A stretch of DNA of 63,824 bases, filler included, from Chrysochromulina tobinii (Eukaryota): the NCBI GenBank assembly GCA_001275005.1. It is 6 parts of 6 records of this genome, joined end to end, with 100 filler letters (N's around TTAATTAATTAA, not from the genome) between each part and the next. Parts side by side here need not be neighbours in the genome. Positions count along the whole stretch, not along the records: positions 25,355 to 35,051 come from JWZX01001172.1; 5 more parts are not named here. One strand, written 5' to 3'. Shown piece by piece: positions 28,645 through 31,463 of the stretch (within the stretch, counting starts at the first letter, position 1; each line of letters begins with the position of its first letter). Made by a program: the position numbers and the translations under genes. A model generated the notes under the pieces. It did no database searches, was not told where the DNA came from, and saw only the letters and a list, made by a program, of their open reading frames with translations.

Positions 28645-31463
28645 TCAGGTGGAGCTGAGGCTGATCAAGCGTTTGACTGCAACTTCCCGATAGGTGGCAT
28701 CGGAAGTCACGAGCTGCAGCGAAGCATGGTCGCTGATCGTCCTGAATTCGGGTGGCATTTTCTGCAGAATGGCTCCAACATTCACGCCTTCTTTGTGGCA
28801 CAGCACGATGTTCTTTCGCAGGTCGACGGCGCGACTTAGCTCCATGACACAGAACTTGCTGTCAAAATATCCATGACTCAGCACGAGCACGAACGTCTTG
28901 GAATGCTCCACTCCTTCCATCATGGCATCGGTGCTGAAGTCTTTCATGTTGACATCTAGCCACACCTTCTTGCCCGCCTGTTCAAGGTCCCTGGTGATGA
29001 GCGCCGCGTCACGGCCGCTTTCGTTCTGCTTGTGCGACATGAAAAAGTCCCACGGGGCACCCTCATTTCTCAGCCCTGGTTGAGTCCTCAGCGGAACAGA
29101 TGGCTCTGCGGCCGCCCCCACGATGAGAGCGTTGGGCAGTGCGAAGCTGATCTGAGCGTTGGGCCGCGCCTGCTCGACAGCAATCCTGCTCATCAATGGC
29201 GATCAGTGGCGATCAGCAACCATCAAGGGCAATCAGCAGCATTCGGCAGCAATGAGCAGCAATCAGCTGCGTGCGGGCCCCGGCGATGCCCGACTCTCTA
29301 TTCAGGCTCACTTGGTCCTTCCGCCGTCGCGTGCGGTGACGAGTATGAGTTTGCTCAGGAACGGCTGGCGCGGAAAAAAGTCGTCTTCCTGCAGCACACA
29401 AAGCTCGCGGATGTGCAATGCCGCGTGGTACGGCCGCTCCGGTCCGAACACGTCGTCGTTGTGCACGCTCATCACGGCGCGCTTGAAGCTGTGGTGCCGC
29501 GCCTTGTCGCCCAGTATCTCGAGGATGCCCTCTGTCAGAAAGAAAGGCAGGTTGCTCACCACCACATCGAAGGTGCCGTCGCGCAACACCGCCAGCGCGT
29601 CGGCCTCCAGCACGCGCGCGCTGCGCAGCTGAAAGCGCAGGATGCGCACCAGGTCTGGGTCCAAGTCCACGAGGGTCAGTGAGGCGCATGCCGGGAAGTG
29701 GCGTGCCACGCTGCCGATGCCGGCGCCGACCTCAACCACGGCGTCGCCCGGTGCGATGGCTGCAGCGCCCAGCAGCACCCGGATCTTGGCCATGTTGCGC
29801 AGGAAGTATTGGTCCATCGCCCCCTTCGGCTGGAAGCTAAACTCGCGGGACATTTCGCACTCTGCCATGTACTCCAGCAGCGTCAGGTGCGTGAAGGAAA
29901 GCAGATAGTCGGCGCCGCGGCGCAGCAGGCCGCTGTACACCAGCTCGTCGAGCACAACCCCGCCATCCGGCGGCTGCTTGGCGGGCGCCGTCGCGGGCAC
30001 CGTCGCAGCGGATCCGGCCGCAGCATCCACCTCCGCCGCGTGGATTTGGTTGAGCCGGCGCTGCACGACGGCGCGCGCGTCGGCGGTGCCGATGACCGGC
30101 CGGCTGCTGCTCAGCATCTCGAATGCGAGCGCCCGCCCAGCGCCATATCTTTGTCGGAGGCGGGTGCCGCATGCGCGTTGCGCGCCTCCTCCACTTCAGC
30201 GAGCGTGGCGCTCACGAACGCCCGGTACAGCTCGCGTAGGCTGCCCGGCACCGCGCCGTCCGTCAGGTACGCCGACACCACGAGCGACAGCGCCAGCGGC
30301 GTCGTTGCCACCGCCGCTAATCTGGGCGGCATGCTCGCGTACACGGCGTCGGCGGACACGTCGGGTACGTCGAAAAAGGCAATGTACTTGGAGATGAATT
30401 CGCGAGACTCGTCGGCGGACAGGTCGTGGATGTACAGCGTCGTCCACCTGCCAGCCCCGCTGCCGCTCACGGCAGGCAGGTGCGTCAGCCGCGTGCTGAC
30501 GATGAAGGAATGCGCCGGAAACGACGCTATGAGCTGCTCGAGCTCGGCCCAAAGCGACGTGTCGTTGACTCGCGTCGCGCCGATCATGCCTTCGTCCAGC
30601 CCGTCCAGCAGCCACACGAAGTCGTACATGCCATCGCGCGCGCTCATGGCGTTGCTCAACGCAGCAGCCTCCGCATCGGACAGTTGGCGGTGCGAGAGGC
30701 GTGACACCGCGTCGCGTGCCATCTGCAGCGACGCCAGCGTGCCAGGTGCGTAGCGGCCCAGCTCGATCAGCAGCGGCACGCGCTTGCGCGGCACCGGTGC
30801 ACCGCCTTCGGCGGCGGCCGCGGCGGGCGTGGCGATTGAGAGTGCGAGGCGCTTCATTATGGTGCTCTTGCCGCTCCCGGGGCAGCCTGTGAGCAGCCAG
30901 CGCCCGAAAGGCTTGTCGAACGCCGCCAGGCCGAGGCCATCTGCCGCCGCGCCGCCGGCTTGCGCGGCCTGTTGCGCGACCTGGCGCGCTTTCACCAGGC
31001 GGTCCAGACTGAGCAGGCCGCCACCCGAGCGCTTCGGCACCGCGGCAGGCGCTGCGGCTGACCCGGCGCCGTCGCCGCCGCCGTGGCTGTGCTTCAGCTT
31101 GAGCATGGTGAACGTGCTGCTGACGCTGCTGAGCTCGTCGCACATGCCGGCGCAGTAAGCGTCCAACGCGTCACGCAGCGCAATTACGGCGCCGTCGCCG
31201 CCGTCGCCCGTCTCGGCCGTCACCTCATCCGCTGCATGCACGGTCGCGCGAGAACGCTTTACCTCAGGCTCCTCACCGTCTGCCAGCTCACGCTTGTCAG
31301 CCTGCGCAACTGCTGCGTTCCACTCGTCGCGGTCGATGTGGCCGTCGCCGTTGCGGTCGATGGTCGCGAAAAGGTCTGCGGTAGGACCCTGCCGATGATG
31401 CGAGTCGGCGCTGCTCGTGTTGCGCTGAGGCATTGAGATGGCGCGCGCGGTATTGTCCGACAT
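28645..31463 (-). CDS. NLR-like protein: EF-hand + NACHT NTPase + KsgA/Dim1-like SAM methyltransferase + C-terminal TIR (frameshift ~30131-30140; intron 29186-29311)
   Basis: EF loop DRNGDGHIDRDE. Walker A GCPGSGKS and Walker B WLLDGLDE. LAFEM and SFTHLTLLEYMA winged-helix motifs lie in the next frame. DQYFL...VVEVGAGIG...VVSNLPF is KsgA-like. AA|GTGAGC...CAG|G splices in frame to DFFMSHKQ...VWLD...FCVMEL (TIR). 5' end uncertain. Confidence 0.75.

What the first reader, a model, noticed from the sequence alone, without database searches (positions are those of the whole stretch)
28645..31463. Three apparent ORFs are one NLR-like gene: EF-hand, NACHT, KsgA-like methyltransferase, TIR
Seen: the methyltransferase ORF begins with NACHT winged-helix sequence (ELVYSGLL...SFTHLTLLEYMA). 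Its apparent stop lies in a consensus donor (ACCAA|GTGAGC) that splices in frame (intron 29186-29311) to a TIR retaining the catalytic-position Glu (FCVMEL). Established: the FQPK..DQYFL / EVGAGIG / SNLPF / DFFP pattern is RsmA/KsgA/Dim1/Erm-like, and TIR domains can be NADases. Inference: a methyltransferase fold in the sensor position, with a C-terminal TIR and no repeats, is an architecture I do not recognise. It could be an integrated decoy or an RNA/SAM sensor, and the NACHT-MTase core may be of bacterial origin.
Basis: partly seen in the sequence, partly recalled or inferred. Interest (0 to 1): 0.8.

Follow-up and report, generated by a model that had tools for sequence, protein, structure and literature searches.

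The report
Algal immune switch with methyltransferase sensor
A freshwater microalga has one spliced gene joining an NLR-type switch, a shrunken RNA-methyltransferase domain and a TIR domain; it was likely acquired from a rare bacterial family that probably serves in defence, and the methyltransferase domain likely acts as the sensor that would switch on the TIR.

Summary
Confirmed: the three ORFs are one 896-aa gene (EF-hand, NACHT, mini-KsgA, TIR). Join 1 is not a splice. The window has 2 extra bases at 30134-36 that are missing in 5 of 5 other assemblies and in 4 of 4 runs covering the site. Join 2 is the predicted 126-nt intron, skipped in RNA contigs of two studies. The core belongs to a small prokaryote-type family, effector-NACHT-mini-KsgA (24 long members). 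Their N-terminal effector is TIR (21), SIR2 (1) or DUF4145 (1); one has none. No paper on it was found in the searches run, and the scan had no earlier look-alike. The algal gene nests inside this family (AU p 2.7e-5). It keeps a 19-residue scar of a deleted N-terminal TIR and has gained a haptophyte-type TIR as last exon. The methyltransferase is the most conserved domain; it keeps the SAM and adenine motifs but lacks the KsgA C-terminal domain. Best reading: an NLR-like defence switch with the methyltransferase fold as sensor and TIR as NAD+-consuming output (inferred, untested). Against: two lake alleles break the TIR, and C-terminally short Erm enzymes are active, so the domain may be a working enzyme.

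The parts
31314..31463 (-). First ATG (31463) and a single canonical EF-hand loop in a low-confidence N-terminal region; the EF-hand DNA is multicopy in the genome
   Evidence: Pfam; model; depth rise in DNA runs
31158..31214 (-). 19-residue scar of a deleted N-terminal TIR (14/19 identical to the start of the TIR of P0021)
   Evidence: score 74, shuffle mean 27.7, 0 of 2000 shuffles reach it; 19-32 against 7 bacterial-type TIRs
30381..30896 (-). NACHT nucleotide-binding domain, Walker A GCPGSGKST, Walker B LLDGLDE
   Evidence: Foldseek NLRC4/NLRP hits
29845..30380 (-). Helical domain 1 and winged helix, running straight into the methyltransferase with no HD2 or repeats
   Evidence: alignment; model
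30134..30136 (.). Two extra bases in the window assembly that cause the apparent ORF1/ORF2 frameshift
29327..29844 (-). Mini-KsgA/Erm-type SAM-binding domain (DQYFL, EVGAGIG, NLPF, FFPRQP); lacks the QxEVA segment and the C-terminal helical domain
29186..29311 (-). 126-nt GT-AG intron. An in-frame stop overlaps the donor, so an unspliced transcript would end after the methyltransferase
29053..29185 (-). Variable linker, start of the last exon
28645..29052 (-). Haptophyte-type TIR domain with the catalytic-position Glu (E832, codon 28840-28842) and the stop; multicopy family in the genome
   Evidence: Pfam; Atlas (top 3 clusters commonest Haptophyta, 0.93-0.95); depth

Best explanation
This is one spliced gene for an 896-aa NACHT protein with a KsgA-like domain after the winged helix and a TIR domain at the C-terminus; it is likely an NLR-like defence switch inherited from bacteria, in which the methyltransferase fold probably senses infection and the TIR would then consume NAD+. 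Inferred mechanism: the SAM/adenine pocket binds an invariant ligand (SAM or SAH, or a flipped adenine in RNA). A change in that occupancy during infection would release the NACHT, allow nucleotide exchange and oligomerisation, and cluster the TIRs. Inferred history: a bacterial effector-NACHT-mini-KsgA gene moved into eukaryotes. A form like P0021 carried an N-terminal TIR. In this haptophyte lineage that TIR was deleted, leaving a scar, an EF-hand leader was added, and a host TIR was spliced on at the other end, restoring an effector.
For: Shown: single frame and splice. Family of 24 long prokaryote-type members with constant NACHT-MTase and an exchangeable N-terminus: TIR 21 (19 by Pfam, 2 by alignment), SIR2 fragment 1, DUF4145 1, none 1. 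Kibby et al. (10.1101/2022.07.19.500537, passages) describe this effector-NACHT-sensor order, list TIR, SIR2 and HEPN as effectors, and note some C-terminal effectors. Patchy carriage: full-length gene in 1 of 272 and 1 of 39 genomes, and both carriers also have a normal KsgA. The MTase is the most conserved domain (mean identity 0.535, against 0.35 for NACHT and 0.40 for TIR in 15 members). The motif IV aromatic is kept in 24 of 25 fused but only 12 of 27 stand-alone forms. The eukaryote-type pair is nested among prokaryote-type rows (100/100; AU p 2.7e-5). TIR exon: 5 synonymous and 0 amino-acid changes in L003 and L007, and identical over 140 aa in three further records. TIR and NACHT genes are induced in virus-resistant G. 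huxleyi (PMC12489294, passages).
Against: No activity or ligand was tested. The expressed allele in X14/X16 has a 5-base insertion at 28929 that stops the TIR before the Glu. The X19 contig has lost the splice donor and has a 5-base deletion at 29071 (phase and paralogy unresolved). Erm37, which lacks the C-terminal domain, still methylates rRNA (PMC8844858), and C-terminally deleted KsgA keeps about 50% activity (10.1101/2021.09.15.460497), so the domain may be an enzyme. High conservation is the opposite of the fast-evolving SNaCT sensors. Only 1 of 3 bacterial loci read (L008) has a defence-like neighbour; L001 sits among housekeeping genes and L002 is a 4.4-kb contig. Taxonomy of the nearest relatives (P0022-30, P0099, P0100) and of P0021 is inferred, not named, and the outgroup root was imperfect.
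Confidence: 0.55

Rival explanations
1. The mini-KsgA is an active, loosely specific adenine methyltransferase, like Erm37. It acts as a second output or a self-mark under NACHT control, not as the sensor.
For: NLP-aromatic motif and SAM motifs nearly invariant in fused forms. Erm37 and Erm41 profiles are 173-179 aa, and Erm37 is active without the C-terminal domain. PADLOC mad2, a defence methylase, matches the domain at 47 bits. TIR-less alleles are transcribed.
Against: The family already carries a separate exchangeable N-terminal effector, and the domain sits where NACHT sensors sit. The QxEVA segment is gone. The mad2 match covers 126 of 492 profile positions and probably reflects the shared fold.
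Confidence: 0.22
2. The bacterial family is defensive, but the algal copy is a shuffled chimera whose TIR is dispensable, so it no longer works as an effector-coupled switch.
For: Two different TIR-disrupting alleles in lake RNA. The ancestral N-terminal TIR is deleted. With no repeat solenoid, the geometry that brings C-terminal TIRs together is unproven.
Against: The TIR shows only synonymous changes in L003 and L007 while the linker varies. Intron and frame are kept in 5 of 5 loci. Loss-of-function polymorphism is common in immune genes (general knowledge).
Confidence: 0.15
3. A non-immune metabolic or stress sensor that reads SAM/SAH status (and Ca2+ through the EF-hand) and signals through the TIR.
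For: A conserved small-molecule pocket; precedent of GUN4-type status sensors on NACHTs; no relatives on phages, viral contigs or plasmids.
Against: Rare, patchy carriage and swaps among toxic effector types fit conflict systems better.
Confidence: 0.08

Closest known systems
Bacterial NLR-related NACHT proteins (bNACHT; Kibby et al., 10.1101/2022.07.19.500537)
   Same: NACHT with D[GAS]hDE Walker B and winged helix; exchangeable N-terminal TIR/SIR2/HEPN-type effectors; repeated transfer to eukaryotes
   Different: The C-terminal module is a KsgA-like fold. 'methyl', 'methylase' and 'KsgA' occur 0 times in the preprint's main text; its supplementary tables were not seen. The algal copy has its TIR at the C-terminus with no repeats.
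KsgA/RsmA/Dim1 and Erm rRNA adenine N6-methyltransferases, especially short Erm37/Erm41
   Same: Fold (Foldseek E 1e-11), SAM motifs, NLP-aromatic motif; about 170 aa, like Erm37/41
   Different: 47 bits against cut-off 171 for ksgA and 31 against 350 for Erm37; no C-terminal domain and no QxEVA segment; forms its own clade apart from 3 KsgA rows; fused to NACHT
Animal NLRs (NLRC4, NLRP3) and plant NLRs with integrated domains
   Same: STAND switch plus TIR; an extra non-repeat domain in the sensing position
   Different: No LRR, no HD2; the extra domain was fused in bacteria rather than captured from a host target
TIR proteins induced in virus-resistant Gephyrocapsa huxleyi (PMC12489294)
   Same: Haptophyte TIR with the conserved Glu
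   Different: The paper reports no NBS or LRR on those proteins; this one is fused to a NACHT

Membership tests
NACHT-class STAND NTPases | Walker A P-loop | tested here: met
   GCPGSGKST; intact in 26 of 26 family rows
NACHT-class STAND NTPases | Walker B signature D[GAS]hDE | tested here: met
   LLDGLDE; definition
NACHT-class STAND NTPases | HD1 and winged helix after the NTPase | tested here: met
   model; Foldseek NLRC4/NLRP hits E about 1e-10, loose rmsd
NLR-related defence proteins | N-terminal effector, central NACHT, C-terminal sensor | tested here: inconclusive
   Order met in the prokaryote-type relatives; in the window the TIR is C-terminal and the sensor role is inferred
NLR-related defence proteins | Antiviral activity and ligand-induced oligomerisation | not testable with these tools
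   needs experiment
Canonical NLRs | C-terminal LRR or other repeats | tested here: not met
   none by Pfam or in the model
KsgA/Dim1/Erm | SAM-binding motifs and NLP-aromatic catalytic motif | tested here: met
KsgA/Dim1/Erm | C-terminal helical domain and QxEVA segment | tested here: not met
   (Erm37/41 also lack the C-terminal domain)
KsgA/Dim1/Erm | Curated profile cut-offs | tested here: not met
   47 against 171 (ksgA), 43 against 212 (Erm)
KsgA/Dim1/Erm | rRNA adenine methylation | not testable with these tools
   needs assay
Enzymatic TIR (NADase) | TIR domain with the catalytic-position Glu | tested here: met
   TIR_2 43.6 against 28 bits; Glu aligned with those of family TIRs
Enzymatic TIR (NADase) | NAD+ cleavage | not testable with these tools
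   needs assay
MADS (mad2) | Full-length Mad2 within the mad operon | tested here: not met
   profile positions 263-388 of 492 only; stand-alone gene in L001, read by eye
Plant NLR integrated decoy | Domain copied from a host protein that a pathogen effector targets | not tested
   the fusion predates the alga; no target known

The most novel reading that the evidence does not exclude
Mini-KsgA is a new class of NLR sensor. It reads SAM depletion or adenine-bearing RNA during infection and fires TIR, SIR2 or HEPN-like effectors in bacteria. Algae took it over, rebuilt the effector at the opposite end by exon shuffling, and tune it against giant viruses through intron retention and TIR-loss alleles.
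Probability: 0.3. Interest if true: 0.87.

Novelty: new variant of a known kind. Interest (0 to 1): 0.7.

Why it matters
What activates most bacterial NACHT proteins is an open question. A sensor with a known ligand pocket (SAM, adenine) makes it directly testable in a single-gene system of about 700 aa. The algal gene also records in its sequence how a borrowed bacterial immune switch is rebuilt: loss of one TIR with a scar, gain of another by splicing. It is a concrete candidate NLR-like receptor in haptophytes, where the TIR proteins linked to virus resistance so far were reported without a nucleotide-binding domain.

Tried and rejected
A second intron at join 1: no fitting GT-AG pair, and it is explained by 2 extra bases. 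Bacterial contamination: rejected, because the window has eukaryotic genes (Rogdi, PIG-P, coilin, U-box) and a spliced intron. Housekeeping Dim1/KsgA: rejected. Net charge as a test of RNA binding: uninformative (median -4.5 fused, -6 KsgA). Carriage on mobile elements: none in viral contigs, phages or plasmids (NACHT-only hits). The Atlas search with the core gave only generic NACHT clusters, at most 0.82. The genome-contig scan found only 2 loci (pattern-limited, so not a true census). The bacterial model (pTM 0.53) did not fix the domain arrangement. P0102 and P0111 were dropped as probable chimeras, and P0108, P0110 and P0112 as fragments, before the effector count. No host genome is held, so paralog number and the phase of the broken alleles stay open. 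Literature searches: NACHT+KsgA+TIR domain 0; NACHT+RrnaAD 0 (18); STAND NTPase+rRNA methylase+effector 0 (54); Chrysochromulina+TIR+HGT+STAND 0 (82); five-term sensor search 0 (87). Searches gave listings with no sign of this family in titles or abstract starts; only PMC12489294 among them was opened. Earlier scan findings: no look-alike, and one unrelated note.

Full report
Observation. Three minus-strand ORFs overlap 28645-31652. Pfam finds an EF-hand and NACHT in the first, RrnaAD/methyltransferase in the second and TIR_2 in the third. The window is eukaryotic by its other genes. The TIR's three nearest Atlas clusters are commonest in Haptophyta (few members have taxa), and the runs holding the DNA are freshwater and mixed-culture. 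I read the host as a freshwater haptophyte; no genome is held.

Join 1 is an error in the window assembly (or a private lesion), not a splice. Two single bases at 30134 and 30136 are left out in DNA contigs X12 and X1 and RNA contigs X14 and X19, the 4 of 8 laid runs that cover the site. Loci L003-L007 all lack them (L004-L006 are 99.9% identical and may be the source strain). The 14 full-length cluster members examined read straight through.

Join 2 is the predicted intron, 29186-29311. RNA contigs X14 and X16 (study P14) skip it with one extra codon at the donor, a variant also seen in 3 of the 14 proteins; X17 (study P16) skips exactly 126 nt. The DNA contigs do not skip it. The spliced protein is 896 aa with the TIR Glu at 832. 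RNA contigs tile most of the gene but none spans it. An in-frame stop overlaps the donor, so intron retention would give a TIR-less protein.

The family. Searches with the methyltransferase domain returned long proteins with TIR, NACHT and RrnaAD. A profile search of 1.84 billion representatives returned about 13 near-full-length clusters before scores fell away. Among 24 long prokaryote-type members the N-terminus is TIR in 21 (19 by Pfam, P0035/36 by alignment), a SIR2 fragment in P0105, DUF4145 in P0100 (HEPN-like, recalled) and absent in P0031. Named carriers are Candidatus Olsenella avistercoris and an unclassified bacterium; the rest are unnamed and judged prokaryotic from intronless 700-aa calls and TIR type. 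Carriage is patchy: full-length in 1 of 272 genomes of one family (two more have the short domain alone or fused to DUF4186) and 1 of 39 of one phylum. Both carriers keep a normal KsgA. L001 is a lone gene among housekeeping genes. L008 abuts a second TIR-NTPase gene, read by eye.

History. The window protein and P0021 share insertions and group at 100/100 inside the family. With 11 other NACHTs as outgroup, monophyly of the 21 prokaryote-type rows is rejected (AU p 2.7e-5; quick tree, one outgroup row misplaced, long branches). P0021 is TIR-NACHT-MTase and probably eukaryotic (its TIR type is recalled as algal; not tested). The window protein keeps 14 of 19 residues matching the start of that TIR, just before the pre-NACHT helix (0 of 2000 shuffles). 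The simplest reading is internal deletion of an ancestral N-terminal TIR. The C-terminal TIR is only weakly similar to the family TIRs and, like the EF-hand, is multicopy in the host DNA, so both are host parts.

The methyltransferase domain. Foldseek's best matches are Dim1 and KsgA; NLRC4 and NLRP structures match the NACHT part. The domain follows the winged helix directly. It keeps the SAM motifs and NLPF but lacks the QxEVA segment and the C-terminal domain, and it falls far below the KsgA and Erm cut-offs. It is the most conserved part of the family (0.535 against 0.35-0.40, 15 members). The motif IV aromatic is kept in 24 of 25 fused and 12 of 27 stand-alone forms. The pocket is therefore under strong constraint in the fusion, which fits an invariant ligand but also catalysis: Erm37 is active without the C-terminal domain (PMC8844858, passages) and C-terminally deleted KsgA keeps about half its activity (10.1101/2021.09.15.460497, passages).

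Selection on the TIR is mixed. L003 and L007 show 1 and 4 synonymous and no amino-acid changes, and three more records are identical over 140 aa. But the X14/X16 contigs carry a 5-base insertion at 28929 that stops translation before the Glu, and the X19 contig lacks the donor G and has a 5-base deletion at 29071. These share SNPs and may be one lineage or a paralog. This is either the loss-of-function polymorphism common in immune genes or a sign that the TIR is dispensable.

Mechanism. I commit to an NLR-like switch (0.55): ligand state at the SAM/adenine pocket controls the NACHT, whose oligomer clusters the TIR NADase. Shown: gene structure, domains, motifs, family, nesting. Inferred: sensing, oligomerisation, NADase activity and the antiviral role. 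Kibby et al. (10.1101/2022.07.19.500537; passages and term counts of the main text) give the framework and note C-terminal effectors, but do not mention a methyltransferase sensor; their supplements were not seen and could list it. PMC12489294 (passages) links TIR and NACHT gene expression to virus resistance in a haptophyte.

Novelty. A new variant of a known kind: NACHT defence proteins and their transfer to eukaryotes are known, but this sensor class was not found in the searches (zero papers) or in the listings. The library lacks most subscription papers. The scan's earlier findings held no look-alike. Interest 0.7.

Noticed in passing
window 57267-60938 (-): A second STAND gene: NPHP3_N/NACHT, APAF1_C, then WD40 in the next ORF; a BspA-type LRR gene lies at 54107-55780.
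   Followed up: no
window 25892-28261 (+): 789-aa ORF of Cys-rich repeats separated by polyproline, with a transmembrane-like stretch, tail to tail with the TIR gene; no Pfam match at useful E.
   Followed up: no
window 38696-40465 (+): Two tandem U-box + Sel1 ORFs.
   Followed up: no
L022:9221-10156; P0218: The same mini-KsgA fused to DUF4186 in an Atopobiaceae genome; many stand-alone 160-180 aa forms exist, with a variable motif IV.
   Followed up: partly
P0001-P0004, P0006: Short proteins whose mini-KsgA groups with the algal clade (SH-aLRT 99): further eukaryotic copies, either stand-alone genes or single exons.
   Followed up: partly
L008:994-5280 (-): Next to a family member, an apparent operon of a metallo-hydrolase, a 949-aa TIR-NTPase-helical-repeat protein and an inositol-monophosphatase-like gene (read by eye; no NCBIfam hit for the large protein).
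   Followed up: no
L007:2284-2330: About 21 extra in-frame residues at the start of the methyltransferase, apparently a local duplication.
   Followed up: no
window 25255-25354, 35052-35151, 38594-38693, 55782-55881, 61725-61824: Five identical scaffold gaps (44 N, 12 bases, 44 N): the window is joined from six contigs; the finding lies within one.
   Followed up: no
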